This document shows, piece by piece, positions 29,199 through 34,038 of a stretch of DNA of 39,455 bases. The DNA lies in IMG/VR virus record IMGVR_UViG_2526164602_000034; one strand, 5' to 3'. The notes under the pieces were generated by a model. It saw only the letters and a list, made by a program, of their open reading frames with translations. It was not told the origin of the DNA and did not search any database. Origin of the DNA: a virus (Duplodnaviria > Heunggongvirae > Uroviricota > Caudoviricetes). The stretch's first letter is position 1; each line of letters starts with the position of its first letter. A program made the position numbers and the translations under genes.

Positions 29199-29230
29199 GG
29201 TGAAGGAGAGGCGGCAGGCTTTGCGGAATA

Positions 29231-29656
29231 TCAGAAAAGTGGCGGTTGCGTTCTTGCCAGATGCAGACGGCGCTGTTCGCGTATGACGGTATAAATCTGG
29301 GTTTCTGACATCCGGTAATGGCGGCGAAGGGATTCAATTTTCTCGCCCCGGTCCCAGCGCGAAAATATCTCATTGTTTCGCAGCTCGGCAAAGAGAGATT
29401 CCCCGACCGGCAGGTAATAACCCCGTCCGCCCATATAGGCTGCCTGAGCCGCAGCCACCTTGCGTGCCAGTTTACCGGCCAGTACCGGCTCAATCCCCTG
29501 ACGCTGAAGTTCTGCGCCGGTGACTTCAACCAGTTCTGACAGGGTCCGCGGCCAGTTCTTTTTGAGAACATCATCAGGGATGTCATCAAGGCGGTCGATA
29601 AGGGCGTGCAGTTGCTCACTGTCACCACCAAACATGCTCATCTGAGTTTCTGCCAT
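29231..29656 (-). CDS. Mor/C-family transcriptional activator (middle/late gene activator)
   Basis: 141-aa protein at the Mu Mor/C position (after gemA, before lys) with C-terminal HTH-like region; only one family member is present here. Confidence 0.7.
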   Translation of the reverse strand: MAETQMSMFGGDSEQLHALIDRLDDIPDDVLKKNWPRTLSELVEVTGAELQRQGIEPVLAGKLARKVAAAQAAYMGGRGYYLPVGESLFAELRNNEIFSRWDRGEKIESLRRHYRMSETQIYTVIREQRRLHLARTQPPLF

Positions 29657-29686
29657 ATCAGCCTCCGGTTCTCGCGTTCCCGGTAA

Positions 29687-29720
29687 GTTTAAAATAAAAA
29701 TCCCGCGTTGTGGCGGGATT
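29687..29720 (-). terminator. Rho-independent terminator at the end of the early operon
   Basis: On the minus strand AATCCCGC-CACAAC-GCGGGATT followed by TTTATTTTAAAC, 5 nt after the gemA stop. Confidence 0.65.
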
Positions 29721-29725
29721 TGGGG

Positions 29726-30235
29726 TTAACGGGGAAGTGATTTTTCATACTGCCTGCAAACGGCGTCATACCCCATCAGCGTGCGTTCGGGCATTCCCAT
29801 CGCGGCCAGCATTTTGCGGCGGTGCCATCGCTTGAGACGCTCCAGCACATCTGAGGCCAGGGCGGGGTGTTGCTCCAGCCACTGCCAGTTTGCCACACCT
29901 TCGCCGCCGTTCTGCGCGGCCGTCTGCGATTTCACCCAGCGGTTAAGGGCGGTTTCCGCACCATCGGTGATAAAGCCCTGCCGGTGCATCACCTTCCAGA
30001 TGGCGCGAATTTTGGCGGTCACCGTACCCGGTTTTAAGGCCCGGTTAACCGGGTTCTGACGCACTTTAAAACCGCGTTTTTTGAAAACATCCAGCACGCG
30101 GGATAACTCATCCGGTGACATATCCCGGCAGCTGGTTTTGCCGGTGGCTGCCAGCAGCGCGGATGTATAAGTCTCATCATCCAGGGCAAGCTCGCGCTTT
30201 GCCACATGAATGGCGGATATCAGTTTTCCTCTCAT
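29726..30235 (-). CDS. gemA: GemA-like protein (Mu gp16 family)
   Basis: 169-aa ORF at the end of the early operon immediately before the terminator and the Mor/C gene, as Mu gemA. Confidence 0.65.
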   Translation of the reverse strand: MRGKLISAIHVAKRELALDDETYTSALLAATGKTSCRDMSPDELSRVLDVFKKRGFKVRQNPVNRALKPGTVTAKIRAIWKVMHRQGFITDGAETALNRWVKSQTAAQNGGEGVANWQWLEQHPALASDVLERLKRWHRRKMLAAMGMPERTLMGYDAVCRQYEKSLPR

Positions 30236-30528
30236 ACCGTATTTACCTTTTTACGGACATGGAAAGCCTTTTCTGCCTCATCCCACCGGGCATGGTGTGT
30301 TGGTGGAATAATCATTATGTGCCAGCCATCTCTGGTTGTTATCCGGCAGAAAAACTCACCGCTATATAACACAATGGCCTGCTGAATGAGCGCATCAGCC
30401 GCCCGTTCAACCGGATGTCTTTTATCAAAAAAGCAGATGATTTTTCGACATAACCACCGGGTAATAACAAATGCGCCGAAAAAGGATGTGATATATAAGC
30501 ACCAGAACAACAGAGAACTATTGTCCAT
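30232..30528 (-). CDS. Hypothetical membrane protein
   Basis: 98-aa ORF with N-terminal hydrophobic segment LLFWCLYITSFFGAFVI; 4-nt overlap with gemA. Confidence 0.45.
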   Translation of the reverse strand: MDNSSLLFWCLYITSFFGAFVITRWLCRKIICFFDKRHPVERAADALIQQAIVLYSGEFFCRITTRDGWHIMIIPPTHHARWDEAEKAFHVRKKVNTV

Positions 30529-30715: not shown

Positions 30716-31082
30716 TTGCTTTATCCTCCATGCTGGACAGAATCATATGTATTAATGTCGGGCGTGGAGATATACGCATTTCATTAAGCGTCTGAAGGGC
30801 AGCAACAGCTGCCTGTTTATCGGTGCCTTTGGCAATTTCAGCAAGAGAATGCACAATCCATAACGGACTTAACGCCACGGCTGAATCCAGAATCATGTCA
30901 TCCATAATAATTTCTGGCATATCCCGTTTGTCACATTCTTTATCCATAAAAGAAACGATTTTTTCTGCATCTTCCGGTTTCATGCCTCCGGCGATGAGAA
31001 TTTTACGATATTCATAAGACGATCTTAATTCAATACTCATATTCATCTCCTGTAACTCTGACAAGGTCGTGATTTTTCTCAT
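30708..31082 (-). CDS. Hypothetical protein
   Basis: 124-aa ORF in an operon-like array with overlapping stop and start codons. Confidence 0.45.
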   Translation of the reverse strand: MRKITTLSELQEMNMSIELRSSYEYRKILIAGGMKPEDAEKIVSFMDKECDKRDMPEIIMDDMILDSAVALSPLWIVHSLAEIAKGTDKQAAVAALQTLNEMRISPRPTLIHMILSSMEDKANE

Positions 31083-31264
31083 TTATGTTTTCCAGTAATA
31101 CGGATATATATGTCGATAAGAAGATTCATAATAAACAGGAAGAGCGACATCCTGATAAAGAACCATATATCCGGCATCATGGACAGATTTCCTGTAACCG
31201 CAAATATAAAACCAACCCCCCACACAGGAACGATAATTGCGAAAAAAACAAGTCTCCTTATCAT
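31079..31264 (-). CDS. Hypothetical small membrane protein (two hydrophobic segments)
   Basis: 61 aa; LVFFAIIVPVWGVGFIFAV and LFLFIMNLLIDIYI. Confidence 0.4.
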   Translation of the reverse strand: MIRRLVFFAIIVPVWGVGFIFAVTGNLSMMPDIWFFIRMSLFLFIMNLLIDIYIRITGKHK

Positions 31265-31812
31265 GTCGTTAACTCCCGTAATACAACATCTTCGGCAGTC
31301 CGACGACGGTGATAAATAAAACTCACCGTGCCCTCGGATAATTCAAATTTCTCGCCGATTTCCCTAAAGGTAAGACGCCGTGGTGATTCAGCATCCCGTA
31401 ATTCACGAATAAGATGAACATCATCGTCAGGTATGCGGGTAAAAGGCAGTAATTCTCCGTATTTTTTCATGCTTACGCCAATATATCGCGCCCGATTGTG
31501 GACAGAATCCCGGTCTCGCCCCAGATATTCTCCTATTTGCTTACCGGTCATCGTCCTGGCATTTTTTCGGATAAATTTATCTTCATCAGGTTTAAATCTG
31601 AGGCGTTTGCATTTGAGCAACTCCGGGTAAGTACCGCGTAATAAAACAATCCGGTTATGTACACCCCAGAAACTTCTTTTTATCCTGACAGCAATATCCT
31701 TAACCGGGGTGGATGGATAAAGCGCAATCAGCAGCGCATCTTCTTCAGGTGTCCATGCGCGAACATGAGCGGGTGCACGGCCTTTTCTCCCCATGGGTTG
31801 TAATTTCATCAT
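31261..31812 (-). CDS. Hypothetical protein with repeated helix-turn-helix-like modules
   Basis: 183 aa; WTPEEDALLIALY, TMTGKQIGEYLGRDRDSVHNRARYIG and LTFREIGEKFELSEGTVSFI resemble sigma region 4 / LuxR-type HTH units. Confidence 0.5.
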   Translation of the reverse strand: MMKLQPMGRKGRAPAHVRAWTPEEDALLIALYPSTPVKDIAVRIKRSFWGVHNRIVLLRGTYPELLKCKRLRFKPDEDKFIRKNARTMTGKQIGEYLGRDRDSVHNRARYIGVSMKKYGELLPFTRIPDDDVHLIRELRDAESPRRLTFREIGEKFELSEGTVSFIYHRRRTAEDVVLRELTT

Positions 31813-31815
31813 GCA

Positions 31816-32331
31816 TCACCCCCCGACTCGCTTTTCGGCAGCATAAAACTCATCAGACAGAATTTCGGTCATTTTCCGTTTTGCGGAATCATCTTCGCAC
31901 TGAAGGTAAATAACATCGTCAACGCAGAACCACTTCACGGGACCATGCAATATTGCTGAGAAGTCAATACCCAGCCAGAACAACAGTGCATCGGTTCTGG
32001 CATACGTGACGGGCGAATATTCACGCCACAGACTGTTAAGTTCGTCAGAGGCAACGCGCAGGGCTTTGGGAATACGTGATGTGCGCGGTGTGCAGCTCCA
32101 GCCATTCGACGCAGTCGGTTTTCGCCATAAGTCGCGATGAAAAGGATATTTGTCATCCATAAAGCGCAGCCCTTTAAAACAAAAGCCACTGATACCGGAT
32201 ACAAATACCGACCGGCACGCAACATTCAGCACGGCCTCAAGGCGTTTTGCCTCATCCTTAACTTTCTGGCAGTCCTGCTGATATTTTTGCCACGCGGCCA
32301 GCGCGGAAGGGTTTGATGTTTTAAAGAACAT
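31816..32331 (-). CDS. Hypothetical protein
   Basis: 171-aa ORF, same strand and tight spacing with neighbours. Confidence 0.45.
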   Translation of the reverse strand: MFFKTSNPSALAAWQKYQQDCQKVKDEAKRLEAVLNVACRSVFVSGISGFCFKGLRFMDDKYPFHRDLWRKPTASNGWSCTPRTSRIPKALRVASDELNSLWREYSPVTYARTDALLFWLGIDFSAILHGPVKWFCVDDVIYLQCEDDSAKRKMTEILSDEFYAAEKRVGG

Positions 32332-32864
32332 TACGCCACCTCCGCAGATATCCCGGCAGGTGCAGCCGTCCGGTCAACAATCAGGTAACGCAGAACATGT
32401 TCGGTGATATTCCAGCCGCTTAAACCGCAGATAATGACACCCAGGCGAATGTCGATATACGCCATCACAAACTGGGGCACGCCTTCTTTCATGGCCTGCT
32501 CATCAACTTCAACCACCACATAAACGGTTTCGCAGGTCAGTACGCCCTGAGCAAATTCCCACGCCATCGACGGAATATCATGCCCCTCAATCCACGGCAG
32601 GGATTTTCTGAAGCTGCACCACTGAACATCATCAGCCGCACCTTCCTGGCTGCATTTGCGACGAACCGGCTGCACCGGGCGGGGACGCGGAATATCATAA
32701 AAACCGTTACATTCCGTCAGCACCCCGGCATCGACCGCATCACGCAAAAAATAAACCATCGAGGATGGCGGCATATTCATTTTTTCAGCCAGAATGCCGC
32801 AGGTCAGACGCCCGTAAATACTCAGCCAGTTTTTAACCCCTTCAAGCACTTTTGCATCAATCAT
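32331..32864 (-). CDS. Hypothetical protein, possible N-terminal winged-helix domain
   Basis: 177 aa; start overlaps the stop of the upstream gene. Confidence 0.45.
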   Translation of the reverse strand: MIDAKVLEGVKNWLSIYGRLTCGILAEKMNMPPSSMVYFLRDAVDAGVLTECNGFYDIPRPRPVQPVRRKCSQEGAADDVQWCSFRKSLPWIEGHDIPSMAWEFAQGVLTCETVYVVVEVDEQAMKEGVPQFVMAYIDIRLGVIICGLSGWNITEHVLRYLIVDRTAAPAGISAEVA

Positions 32865-33507: not shown

Positions 33508-34038
33508 TTATTTATTCAGTCCGGCGTCCTGTTCAAAAGGCTCGACATAAAAACTTTCAGCGCCTTTATTCACCTTAATACCGGCAATCCCTTTCACCGC
33601 ATCCGGCTCCGCCAGGACCGCTTCCTTGTTCACTTCCTCTTTCGTGCGGATAAAACGCTCAAGGCCCATACGGCGCAGCATTTCAATCACACCTTCCACA
33701 TCACGACTGACGCTGCATGATGGATTCCCCAGTCGCCATGACACCGTTCCGGTGGTCAGATTGGCAGTTTTGGTTTTGCCGCCGTTCGTCAGCTCATCAC
33801 GGTTGGTTTTGCACCAGTCCTGAATCCCCTTAAAAAGCACTTTGATTTCTTTTTTAAGGTTTTCAATCTGCGGCGTATAACGGGCGGTGATTTCTGCCAC
33901 TTCATCATTCATCGCTGTTTCCAGGCGCAGCGCCTCTCGCTGAATATCGCCCAGGGTGCGGATATCGCGGCTGACCTCTTCACGGGTCTGCGGTGCCGCC
34001 TCTGCTGCGGCCTTTAATTTTGTAACGCGTTTTGCCAT
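33508..34038 (-). CDS. gam: Gam-like host-nuclease inhibitor (DNA-end-binding)
   Basis: 176-aa ORF in the early region in the Mu gam position and of the Mu Gam size. Confidence 0.75.
   Translation of the reverse strand: MAKRVTKLKAAAEAAPQTREEVSRDIRTLGDIQREALRLETAMNDEVAEITARYTPQIENLKKEIKVLFKGIQDWCKTNRDELTNGGKTKTANLTTGTVSWRLGNPSCSVSRDVEGVIEMLRRMGLERFIRTKEEVNKEAVLAEPDAVKGIAGIKVNKGAESFYVEPFEQDAGLNK

What the first reader, a model, noticed from the sequence alone, without database searches (positions are those of the whole stretch)
31261..31812. Early protein with three HTH-like modules
The 183-aa product contains three segments resembling sigma region 4 / LuxR-type helix-turn-helix units. A small multi-HTH protein expressed early could redirect host transcription or act as an additional phage regulator not described for Mu.
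Basis: inference. Interest (0 to 1): 0.4.

Follow-up and report, generated by a model that had tools for sequence, protein, structure and literature searches.

The report
D5-like three-HTH DNA-binding early protein
This early gene of a Mu-like prophage encodes a small, very basic protein built from three helix-turn-helix DNA-binding modules; it belongs to an already catalogued phage family named after the phage T5 D5 protein, so it is a real but fairly ordinary uncharacterised phage DNA-binding regulator.

Summary
The ORF 31261-31812 (-) is a real gene: ECs_4956 of the Mu-like prophage Sp18 type, dN/dS 0.08-0.27. The window copy sits in ureC. The three-module observation is confirmed. AlphaFold2 (pLDDT 84.5) gives three three-helix bundles. 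Modules 1 and 2 are a true internal duplication (hhalign E 3e-14) of Myb/SANT/GcrA-DBD type, in register with c-Myb R2R3. Module 3 is a four-helix sigma-region-4/LuxR-like HTH. The protein is not a sigma factor, a LuxR, AsnC or GcrA family member, or a defence protein. It belongs to PHROG 323, "transcriptional regulator, D5-like" (E 1e-58), and aligns collinearly with phage T5 D5 over all three modules. T5 D5 is a DNA-binding protein needed for replication and late transcription. Mu has a shorter two-module relative, gp9/E8, so "not described for Mu" is only partly right. Orthologues occupy fixed early-operon slots: after the gp12 homologue in Mu-like phages, and between a Dam-like methylase and replication gene A in P2-like phages. 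The recognition helices are the most variable parts, whereas one face of module 3 is nearly invariant. Best reading: an accessory, allele-specific dsDNA-binding regulator of phage DNA transactions. Its targets are unknown, and RNA polymerase redirection is unsupported.

The parts
31261..31812 (-). CDS of the 183-aa D5-like three-HTH protein (= ECs_4956 of Sp18), stop codon 31261-31263 included
   Evidence: ORF listing. 100% identity to the annotated CDS in Sakai and many other genomes. PHROG 323 E 1.1e-58. dN/dS 0.08-0.27.
31819..31824 (-). G-rich Shine-Dalgarno-like run (GGGGGG) 7-12 nt upstream of the ATG, inside the 3' end of the upstream gene
   Evidence: Read directly from the sequence. 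Function inferred.
31765..31812 (-). aa 1-16: conserved basic Pro/Gly-rich N-terminal arm (MMKLQPMGRKGRAPAH), predicted disordered
   Evidence: pLDDT below 50 for residues 1-12. G11 and H16 invariant; P6, G8 and P14 at least 90% conserved. Net charge +4. 0-1 non-synonymous against 3 synonymous changes between alleles.
31627..31764 (-). aa 17-62: HTH module 1, Myb/SANT-like three-helix bundle (WTPEEDxxL...; helices 22-31, 37-44, 48-59)
   Evidence: AF2 model. hhalign against module 2 E 3e-14. Family profile aligns to c-Myb R2. Pfam Myb_DNA-binding hit in 16 of 20 family members.
31471..31599 (-). aa 72-114: HTH module 2, Myb/SANT-like three-helix bundle (helices 75-84, 90-97, 101-110)
   Evidence: Aligns to the first module of Mu gp9.
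31264..31440 (-). aa 125-183: HTH module 3, four-helix sigma-region-4/LuxR-like domain (helices 129-140, 149-156, 160-169, 173-181) with a nearly invariant face (DxDVxLIRxLRD ... LTFREIGEKF)
31816..32331 (-). Upstream gene, homologue of Mu gp12 (ECs_4955). The D5-like gene follows it directly in most Mu-like loci examined
   Evidence: tblastn to Mu, 53% identity, E 3e-57. gp12 hit at about -519 nt in most of the 44 Mu-like IMG/VR loci; the exceptions are L063, truncated at the match, and L083/L085, the most divergent, where gp12 was not detected.
31079..31264 (-). Downstream 61-aa ORF (ECs_5772) whose ATG overlaps the stop of the D5-like gene (ATGA), suggesting translational coupling

Best explanation
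The gene encodes a D5-like, three-module helix-turn-helix double-stranded-DNA-binding protein. It is made from the early (Pe) operon of an Sp18-type Mu-like prophage.

Anatomy:
- a conserved basic N-terminal arm;
- a tandem pair of Myb/SANT-type three-helix modules, spaced like c-Myb R2R3;
- a short linker;
- a four-helix sigma-region-4/LuxR-type HTH.

Proposed mechanism (inferred). The three recognition helices, one per module, read DNA. The R2R3-like pair would occupy adjacent major-groove positions, module 3 would extend the site, and the C-terminal helix may allow dimerisation. The reading surfaces differ between alleles, so each allele probably prefers different DNA sequences. The nearly invariant charged face of module 3 (helices 129-140 and 149-156) probably contacts a conserved partner.

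By homology with phage T5 D5, the most likely role is a non-essential early accessory factor. It would bind phage and/or host DNA to modulate the early-to-late transcription programme and/or phage DNA replication. It is not a sigma factor.

Shown: gene reality, fold, internal duplication, family membership, synteny, conservation pattern.
Inferred: DNA binding itself, sequence specificity, the regulatory role, and timing of expression.
For: Gene reality:
- dN/dS 0.08-0.27.
- Present in 229 of 5426 complete E. coli genomes, almost always within the gp11-gp12 block.

Fold:
- AF2 pLDDT 84.5 with three three-helix bundles.
- Module 3 alone: GcrA DBD 6.1, then many sigma region-4 domains.

Sequence:
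- Internal duplication E 3e-14.
- Family profile vs c-Myb R2R3 E 9e-6, in register over both repeats; vs a two-HTH CRISPR-repeat-binding protein E 1.2e-4.
- Pfam Myb in 16 of 20 members and Sigma70_r4 in 14 of 20.
- pI 10.1, net charge +13.

Family:
- PHROG 323 E 1.1e-58.
- T5 D5 scores 1.2e-71 on the same PHROG. It aligns collinearly over all three modules (hhalign 96.7%, E 3.5e-10).
- The T5 record describes D5 as a DNA-binding protein required for DNA replication and late transcription and involved in shut-off of expression (note cut off in the record) (McCorquodale 1979, cited in PMC12630848).
- A 2026 preprint describes D5 as an HTH DNA binder that is mildly toxic when expressed alone.

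Conservation pattern:
- The recognition helices are the most variable helical elements (1.76, 1.92 and 2.11 bits); only the module 1-2 linker (1.94 bits) is comparably variable.
- The scaffold and the module-3 face are conserved (0.25-0.53 bits).
- The two E. coli allele classes (73% identical) differ mainly in those helices.

Synteny:
- Fixed early-operon positions in Mu-like and P2-like phages.
- In T5 the gene sits inside the replication gene cluster.
Against: - No experiment exists on this protein or on Mu gp9, and no target DNA site was identified here.
- This protein scores below every Pfam gathering threshold.
- Foldseek with the whole model gave no significant PDB hit; best E 0.07.
- T5 D5 is only about 24% identical and nearly neutral (pI 6.3 against 10.1), so functional transfer is weak.
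- From memory, not from a paper read here: D5 binds dsDNA cooperatively and largely non-specifically. That fits poorly with allele-specific recognition helices.
- The variable helices could instead reflect evasion of host sensors, as with the retron that senses D5.
- Mu lacks a full-length homologue, so the full-length form is not universal in Mu-like phages; gene essentiality was not tested.
Confidence: 0.55

Rival explanations
1. Sequence-specific middle/late switch factor. The protein activates or anti-terminates expression of the single Mor/C-type activator gene, which lies directly behind a strong intrinsic terminator. It would thus take the place of Mu Mor in Sp18-type phages.
For: - A strong terminator (9-bp stem, T-tract) lies at 29721-29698 (-), between the GemA stop and the Mor/C-like start 38 nt downstream.
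- In the early-region stretch that was compared, one Mor/C-family gene was found, closer to Mu C (39%, E 7e-31) than to Mor (27%, E 6e-12).
- The recognition helices vary between alleles.
- D5-like and Mor/C-like alleles co-vary in 9 of 10 prophages compared.
Against: - Strain M3 combines an A-type D5-like allele with a B-type Mor/C allele, so the linkage is not obligate.
- The Mor HTH regions of the two allele classes are nearly identical.
- Orthologues sit in P2-like phages. From general knowledge, those phages use Ogr-type late activators and have no Mor.
- From general knowledge, many Mu-like phages manage with a single Mor/C homologue.
- No candidate binding site was identified.
Confidence: 0.12
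2. RNA-polymerase-directed factor. Module 3 mimics sigma region 4, or the invariant face of module 3 binds RNA polymerase or sigma70. Host transcription is thereby redirected or shut off, in the manner of a GcrA-type or AsiA-type cofactor.
For: - The exposed residues of helices 129-140 and 149-156 are nearly invariant across orthologues from Mu-like and P2-like phages of enterobacteria. This fits a shared host partner.
- T5 D5 is needed for late transcription and shut-off.
- The GcrA DBD is the top structural match.
Against: - No sigma region 2 or 3.
- No GcrA C-terminal sigma-interacting domain, and no GcrA Pfam hit.
- No interaction data of any kind.
Confidence: 0.12
3. Replication or DNA-metabolism accessory protein, possibly one that reads DNA methylation state. 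It binds phage DNA to assist or time replication rather than transcription.
For: - In 21 P2-like IMG/VR loci the gene lies 0.9-1.6 kb downstream of the start of a Dam-like D12 methyltransferase gene. In 20 of those 21 it also lies 0.5-2.4 kb upstream of replication initiator gene A. The one remaining P2-like locus is truncated.
- T5 D5 lies between the ligase genes and the DnaB-like helicase, primase and polymerase genes. Its record says it is required for DNA replication.
- In Mu-like phages the gene lies in the Gam-gp11-gp12 block.
- The best structural match is the GcrA DBD. That domain prefers methylated sites (paper titles and abstracts).
Against: - The synteny may reflect a single P2 sub-lineage. 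The P2-like Citrobacter phage Shae_phiSM has the gene without an adjacent methylase.
- Sp18-type phages have no Dam-like gene nearby.
- From general knowledge, Mu-like replication is transposition driven by A and B with the host replisome.
- Nothing here tests methyl-DNA binding.
Confidence: 0.15
4. The ORF is not functional, or the HTH resemblance is a chance or compositional artefact.
For: This protein passes no Pfam gathering threshold. RefSeq labels it inconsistently: hypothetical, AsnC family, DNA-binding, SANT/Myb-like.
Against: - Purifying selection.
- Thousands of homologues: 13,915 at E <= 1e-3 and 177 at E <= 1e-30.
- A confident structure model.
- A significant internal repeat.
- Conserved synteny.
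Confidence: 0.01

Closest known systems
Phage T5 D5 protein (T5.118, YP_006946.1), founding member of PHROG 323 "transcriptional regulator, D5-like"
   Same: - Same PHROG: 1.1e-58 for this protein, 1.2e-71 for D5.
- Collinear alignment of all three HTH modules (hhalign 96.7%, E 3.5e-10, aa 17-171 against D5 71-232).
- Both are early phage proteins.
- D5 is a DNA-binding HTH protein.
   Different: - Only about 24% identity.
- D5 is 255 aa, with an extra N-terminal region of about 70 aa and an Ala/Lys-rich tail.
- pI 6.3 for D5 against 10.1 here.
- D5 belongs to a virulent phage and sits in a replication gene cluster; it is required for replication and late transcription. This protein has no full-length homologue in Mu itself, so it is not a universal component of Mu-like phages.
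- The role of D5 as a trigger of retron-Kva2 is untested here.
Phage Mu gp9 (E8, Mup09, 99 aa), an uncharacterised gene of the semi-essential early region
   Same: - Homologous to modules 2 and 3: hhalign 98%, E 2.8e-13; BLASTP 32% over 101 aa, E 6e-10.
- Same PHROG.
- Same operon type, the early region of a transposable phage.
   Different: - gp9 lacks the N-terminal arm, module 1 and the C-terminal helix.
- It lies upstream of gam, not after gp12. Sp18-type phages have an unrelated gene (PHROG 2230) at that place.
- The invariant LTFREIGEKF face is not conserved in gp9.
Eukaryotic R2R3 Myb / SANT DNA-binding repeats (Pfam PF00249, PF13921)
   Same: - Modules 1-2 share the W-T-x-E-E-D start, the three-helix bundle and the repeat spacing of about 52 aa.
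- The family profile aligns in register with c-Myb and B-Myb R2R3 (E 9e-6 and 2e-5).
   Different: - This protein is below the Pfam threshold (16.6 bits against 24.4).
- Only the first of the three regularly spaced tryptophans is kept.
- It has a third module of a different type and comes from a phage.
- Prokaryotic relatives carry 3-9 tandem copies or are fused to helicases.
Caulobacter GcrA DNA-binding domain (PDB 5yiu)
   Different: - No GcrA Pfam hit, and no detectable sequence match to GcrA in the PDB sequence search.
- No C-terminal sigma70-interacting domain.
- Three modules instead of one.
Sigma-70 region 4 / LuxR-GerE tetrahelical HTH
   Same: - Module 3 has four helices with the HTH as helices 2-3.
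- Sigma70_r4 23.5 bits.
   Different: - Just below the Pfam cut-off (24.1).
- No GerE hit.
- No sigma regions 2 or 3, and no receiver or autoinducer domain.
- Not a sigma factor or a LuxR-family regulator.
AsnC/Lrp family (the name RefSeq gives many orthologues)
   Different: Below the cut-off of 27 bits. No C-terminal RAM/AsnC_trans_reg ligand-binding domain. The name looks like an over-annotation.

Membership tests
PHROG 323, D5-like transcriptional regulators | Significant full-length match to the family profile | tested here: met
   E 1.1e-58, 200 bits, aa 2-182 on profile positions 80-256 of 319.
PHROG 323, D5-like transcriptional regulators | Collinear homology with the founding member, T5 D5 | tested here: met
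   hhalign probability 96.7%, E 3.5e-10, 145 aligned columns spanning all three modules. T5 D5 hits PHROG 323 at 1.2e-71. The best tblastn hit of D5 in the window is this gene.
PHROG 323, D5-like transcriptional regulators | Double-stranded-DNA binding with an effect on replication, late transcription and early shut-off, as reported for T5 D5 | not testable with these tools
   Known only from the T5 annotation and cited literature. Needs biochemistry and genetics.
Myb/SANT DNA-binding domain (PF00249, PF13921) | Score above the Pfam gathering threshold | tested here: not met
   16.6 bits against 24.4 and 16.0 against 22.9 for this protein. However, 16 of 20 orthologues hit at E < 0.01, best 6.3e-9.
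Myb/SANT DNA-binding domain (PF00249, PF13921) | Three-helix bundle with the HTH in helices 2-3, in tandem repeats of about 52 aa | tested here: met
Sigma-70 family sigma factor | Region 4 HTH above threshold | tested here: inconclusive
Sigma-70 family sigma factor | Region 2 (core binding and -10 recognition) | tested here: not met
   No Sigma70_r2 hit at E <= 10. TIGR02937 18.6 bits against a cut-off of 42.9, matching only aa 146-169.
LuxR/GerE family (PF00196) | GerE-type HTH profile match | tested here: not met
   No GerE hit at E <= 10. Only fold-level similarity to EsrB, DesR, EvgA and StyR.
GcrA family (PF07750) | GcrA profile match with the N-terminal DBD plus the C-terminal sigma70-interacting domain | tested here: not met
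AsnC/Lrp family | HTH_AsnC-type domain plus the C-terminal AsnC_trans_reg (RAM) domain | tested here: not met
   HTH_AsnC-type 20.1 bits against 27. No AsnC_trans_reg hit. The rest of the protein consists of two further HTH modules.
Known anti-phage defence proteins (PADLOC) | Match to any defence-system profile | tested here: not met
   No family for this protein or for seven neighbouring genes at E <= 0.01.

The most novel reading that the evidence does not exclude
The D5-like three-HTH proteins may be a modular class of specificity-swapping readers of phage DNA. Allele-specific recognition helices would target phage-specific sites. The invariant face of module 3 would recruit a conserved host partner, such as RNA polymerase/sigma70 or a replisome component. 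In Sp18-type phages this could be the missing Mor-equivalent step, letting transcription reach the single Mor/C-type activator behind the terminator at 29698-29721. In P2-like phages it could couple the adjacent Dam-like methylase to initiation by gene A, a GcrA-like reading of methylation. The same surface might be what host retrons sense, as they sense T5 D5.
Probability: 0.1. Interest if true: 0.6.

Novelty: new member of a known kind. Interest (0 to 1): 0.3.

Why it matters
The semi-essential early regions of Mu-like phages are still largely functionally blank (PMC3820752).

Placing this gene and Mu gp9/E8 in the T5 D5 family gives both a concrete, testable hypothesis: a multi-HTH dsDNA-binding factor acting on transcription or replication timing. 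It also corrects a misleading RefSeq name ("AsnC family protein").

The family is large: 13,915 profile hits, many with 3-9 tandem Myb-like repeats. It is conserved at fixed early-operon positions in transposable and P2-like phages. One member, T5 D5, was recently reported to trigger a retron defence system. Knowing what these proteins bind would therefore help both phage regulation and phage-defence studies.

As it stands, this is an annotation-level refinement, not a surprise.

Tried and rejected
2. Single-sequence phmmer against PDB sequences gave only chance-level hits, including PilT ATPases.
3. tblastn of the protein against Mu found nothing, and tblastn of Mu gp9 against the window missed the gene. 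The relationship appeared only with profiles and pairwise BLASTP.
4. I tested whether D5-like alleles co-vary with Mor/C-like alleles, as a hint of a shared regulatory circuit. 9 of 10 prophages agree, but strain M3 is recombinant and the Mor HTHs barely differ, so there is no usable signal.
5. The promoter and terminator scan of the early region gave counts no higher than in shuffled sequence. The only notable site was the terminator after GemA.
6. PADLOC gave nothing. NCBIfam gave only a sub-threshold sigma70-ECF hit.
7. A literature search for ECs4956 or Sp18 found nothing relevant. The DRT4 paper concerns T5 ORF55, not D5. The 1979 D5 paper (PMC353123) is not held.
8. I did not attempt de novo binding-site discovery. 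With no anchor it would have been a fishing exercise.

Full report
**Where the window comes from.** The target ORF (31261-31812, minus strand, 183 aa) is 100% identical in DNA to ECs_4956 (NP_312983.2, "hypothetical protein") of the Mu-like prophage Sp18 of E. coli O157:H7 Sakai. The same sequence occurs in many other STEC genomes. Homologous DNA is present in 229 of 5426 complete E. coli genomes. In the window the phage genes run on the minus strand. The order is repressor, ner, A, B, several small ORFs, Gam (33508-34038), ECs_4953, a gp11 homologue (32331-32864), a gp12 homologue (31816-32331), the target gene, four small ORFs, GemA (29726-30235), a Mor/C-type activator (29231-29656), and lysis genes. 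The window copy is not the Sakai copy. Its right end abuts the first 956 nt of ureC, and no complete genome in the collection has that junction.

- The ORF starts 3 nt after the stop of the gp12 homologue and follows a GGGGGG run. Its stop overlaps the next start as ATGA.
- Allele comparisons give dN/dS 0.08-0.27, so it is a translated gene under purifying selection.
- AlphaFold2 on a 20-sequence alignment gives mean pLDDT 84.5. The model has three separate three-helix bundles (22-31/37-44/48-59, 75-84/90-97/101-110, 129-140/149-156/160-169), a further C-terminal helix (173-181) and a disordered N-terminus. pTM is 0.53, as expected for flexibly linked modules.
- The repeat is statistically solid. 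Sub-alignment profile comparison gives probability 98%, E 3e-14 for module 1 against module 2, and 77%, E 2e-5 for module 2 against module 3.

**What kind of HTH?** This protein alone passes no Pfam threshold. The best hit is Sigma70_r4 at 23.5 bits against 24.1 on aa 145-169, followed by HTH_AsnC-type, HTH_11, MarR_2 and Myb. Across 20 orthologues, Myb_DNA-binding is hit in 16, HTH_AsnC in 15 and Sigma70_r4 in 14.
- The family profile finds c-Myb and B-Myb R2R3 in PDB sequences (E 9e-6 and 2e-5). Modules 1 and 2 align in register with R2 and R3. It also finds a two-HTH CRISPR-repeat-binding protein (E 1.2e-4).

So modules 1-2 are Myb/SANT-type, and module 3 is a four-helix sigma4/LuxR-type HTH.

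**Family.** The PHROG scan is decisive: PHROG 323, "transcriptional regulator, D5-like", E 1.1e-58 over aa 2-182.
- The name comes from phage T5 D5 (255 aa), which hits the same PHROG at 1.2e-71. It aligns with the family collinearly across all three modules (hhalign 96.7%, E 3.5e-10).
- The T5 record describes D5 as a [quoted passage not shown]. The primary paper is McCorquodale et al. 1979, cited in PMC12630848. It is not held in the library.
- A 2026 preprint describes D5 as an HTH protein that is mildly toxic on its own and triggers the type IX retron-Kva2 (bioRxiv 10.64898/2026.07.11.737809).
- From memory only: D5 was characterised biochemically as an abundant, cooperative double-stranded-DNA-binding protein.

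**Relation to Mu.** Mu has no full-length homologue.
- The flanking genes match Mu gp11 (67%) and gp12 (53%). The target gene and ECs_4953 have no Mu counterpart.
- Mu gp9/E8 (99 aa), just upstream of gam, is a two-module relative. It falls in PHROG 323 at 5e-29. hhalign to modules 2-3 gives 98%, E 2.8e-13. BLASTP gives 32% identity over 101 aa, E 6e-10.
- The Mu RefSeq record already labels gp9 "transcriptional regulator, D5-like".
- Sp18-type phages carry an unrelated gene (PHROG 2230) at the gp9 position.

So "a regulator not described for Mu" is half right. This three-module form and its position are absent from Mu. The family is present there, though uncharacterised.

**Distribution and context.**
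- The word-indexed search found about 30 clusters in E. coli, Salmonella and Citrobacter. They are named AsnC family, SANT/Myb-like, winged-helix or DNA-binding protein.
- The exhaustive profile search found 13,915 proteins at E <= 1e-3 and 177 at E <= 1e-30. These are orthologues of about 180 aa plus many long proteins carrying 3-9 tandem copies of the module-1/2 unit. One has an N-terminal helicase.
- In phage records the two-module unit also turns up in mycobacteriophage regions annotated as HNH endonuclease or methylase genes, and in Vibrio and Klebsiella phages.
- An IMG/VR scan returned 65 loci, which I classified with marker genes.
  - 44 are Mu-like. The gene lies about 519 nt downstream of the start of the gp12 homologue and upstream of GemA and Mor, down to the 48%-identical locus L070. 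The 37%-identical loci L083 and L085 show only A and B.
  - 21 are P2-like. In these it lies 0.9-1.6 kb downstream of the start of a Dam-like D12 methyltransferase gene and (in 20 of the 21) 0.5-2.4 kb upstream of replication initiator gene A.
- Salmonella and Citrobacter prophages show the same P2-like arrangement.
- The P2-like Citrobacter phage Shae_phiSM has the gene without a methylase.
- T5 D5 lies between the ligase genes and the helicase, primase and polymerase genes.

The gene is therefore a stable early-operon component in several temperate phage lineages, often next to DNA-transaction genes.

**Conservation pattern.** In the 20-sequence alignment, the third (recognition) helix is the most variable helix of each module: 1.76, 1.92 and 2.11 bits. 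Only the buried positions are fixed (V51, R54, L58; V104, R107, A108; A163, I166, Y167).
- Helices 1 and 2 of module 3 are almost invariant (0.53 and 0.25 bits). This includes exposed charged residues D129, D131, R136, R139, D140, E151, E154 and K155.
- The short N-terminal arm is also conserved.
- E. coli prophages carry two allele classes that are 73% identical. The gene is a divergence island (63-80% nt identity) in a backbone that is 92-100% identical. Its synonymous divergence is high (dS up to 0.84), which would fit allele replacement by recombination rather than fast local evolution; dS of the flanking genes was not computed.

I read this as a conserved scaffold carrying swappable DNA-reading surfaces, plus a conserved face for a common partner. 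This is an inference. Evasion of host sensors could also explain the variability.

**Mechanism.**
- Most likely (confidence about 0.55): an accessory early DNA-binding factor of the D5 type. It would bind double-stranded DNA through three recognition helices and modulate phage transcription timing and/or replication.
- Rivals:
  - A specific switch factor for the single Mor/C-type activator, which sits just behind a strong intrinsic terminator at 29721-29698. The M3 recombinant and the P2-like orthologues argue against this.
  - An RNA-polymerase-directed sigma4 mimic. This rests on fold resemblance and the invariant face only, with no region 2.
  - A replication or methylation-linked factor, based on synteny with Dam and gene A, the T5 context and the GcrA-like fold.
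- The "not a gene / chance" reading is refuted.

**Verdict.** This is a new, uncharacterised member of a known and already labelled phage family. It is not a sigma, LuxR, AsnC or GcrA family member. Interest is modest. The useful outputs are the link to T5 D5 and Mu gp9, the corrected domain typing, and a concrete set of experiments.

Noticed in passing
window 29698-29721 (-), with 29231-29656 (-): A strong intrinsic terminator (AAATCCCGC-CACAAC-GCGGGATTT followed by a T-tract) lies immediately after the GemA stop and 38 nt before the start of the Mor/C-family activator gene found in the early region. That activator is closer to Mu C (39%) than to Mor (27%), and the lysozyme gene follows it directly. 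Sp18-type phages thus seem to lack the Mu Mor-to-C two-step middle operon, and how this activator gene is transcribed past the terminator is unclear.
   Followed up: partly
window 1-978 (+): The first 956 nt are the 5' part of ureC (urease alpha subunit, 100% identical to ureC in more than 590 genomes), and the match then stops. The Mu-like prophage of this window is therefore inserted in ureC, not in sorM as in Sakai. No complete genome in the collection has this junction.
   Followed up: partly
window 30232-30528 (-) (ECs_4959) and 29200-29800: Between the window and the otherwise 92-100% identical prophage of strain AST198 there are three sharp divergence islands: ECs_4959 (50% aa identity), the Mor/C-like gene with the end of GemA (about 76% nt identity), and the D5-like gene. 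This points to mosaic allele replacement in the early region.
   Followed up: partly
L005-L010 and L064-L084 (P2-like prophages and IMG/VR contigs): P2-like phages show a conserved gene order: Dam-like D12 methyltransferase, 0-3 small ORFs, the D5-like gene, then replication initiator gene A. This holds in 20 of the 22 P2-like IMG/VR loci (two are cut short). The best structural match of the modules is the methylation-sensitive GcrA DBD, so this is a lead for a link to methylation.
   Followed up: no
proteins P0033, P0035, P0043, P0080: A very large prokaryotic or viral family carries 3-9 tandem copies of the same Myb-like unit (WTxEEDxxLxxxY...EIAxxLGRSxxSVxxRAxxLGL). One example is an 807-aa protein with an N-terminal ResIII/Helicase_C helicase and nine repeats. 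Their origin and function were not examined.
   Followed up: no
one search hits H22-H29 and H44 (mycobacteriophages Thibault, Bombitas and others): The two-module unit (aa 12-114) matches, at 35% identity, regions annotated as HNH endonuclease or DNA methylase genes in cluster-J-like mycobacteriophages. This suggests the module is reused as a DNA-targeting domain of nucleases or methylases.
   Followed up: no
window 3204-5243 (-), 5343-5903 (-), 1085-1822 (-): The late end of the prophage carries a Mom homologue (PF25680, E 4e-77), a Gin-like serine invertase (Resolvase plus HTH_7), and a 679-aa tail-fibre-region protein with a SASA (sialate O-acetylesterase-like) domain and DUF6645.
   Followed up: no
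RefSeq annotations of orthologues: PGAP names near-identical orthologues inconsistently: hypothetical protein, AsnC family protein, DNA-binding protein, or SANT/Myb-like DNA-binding domain-containing protein. The AsnC name is not justified, because there is no RAM domain and the HTH_AsnC hit is below its cut-off.
   Followed up: yes
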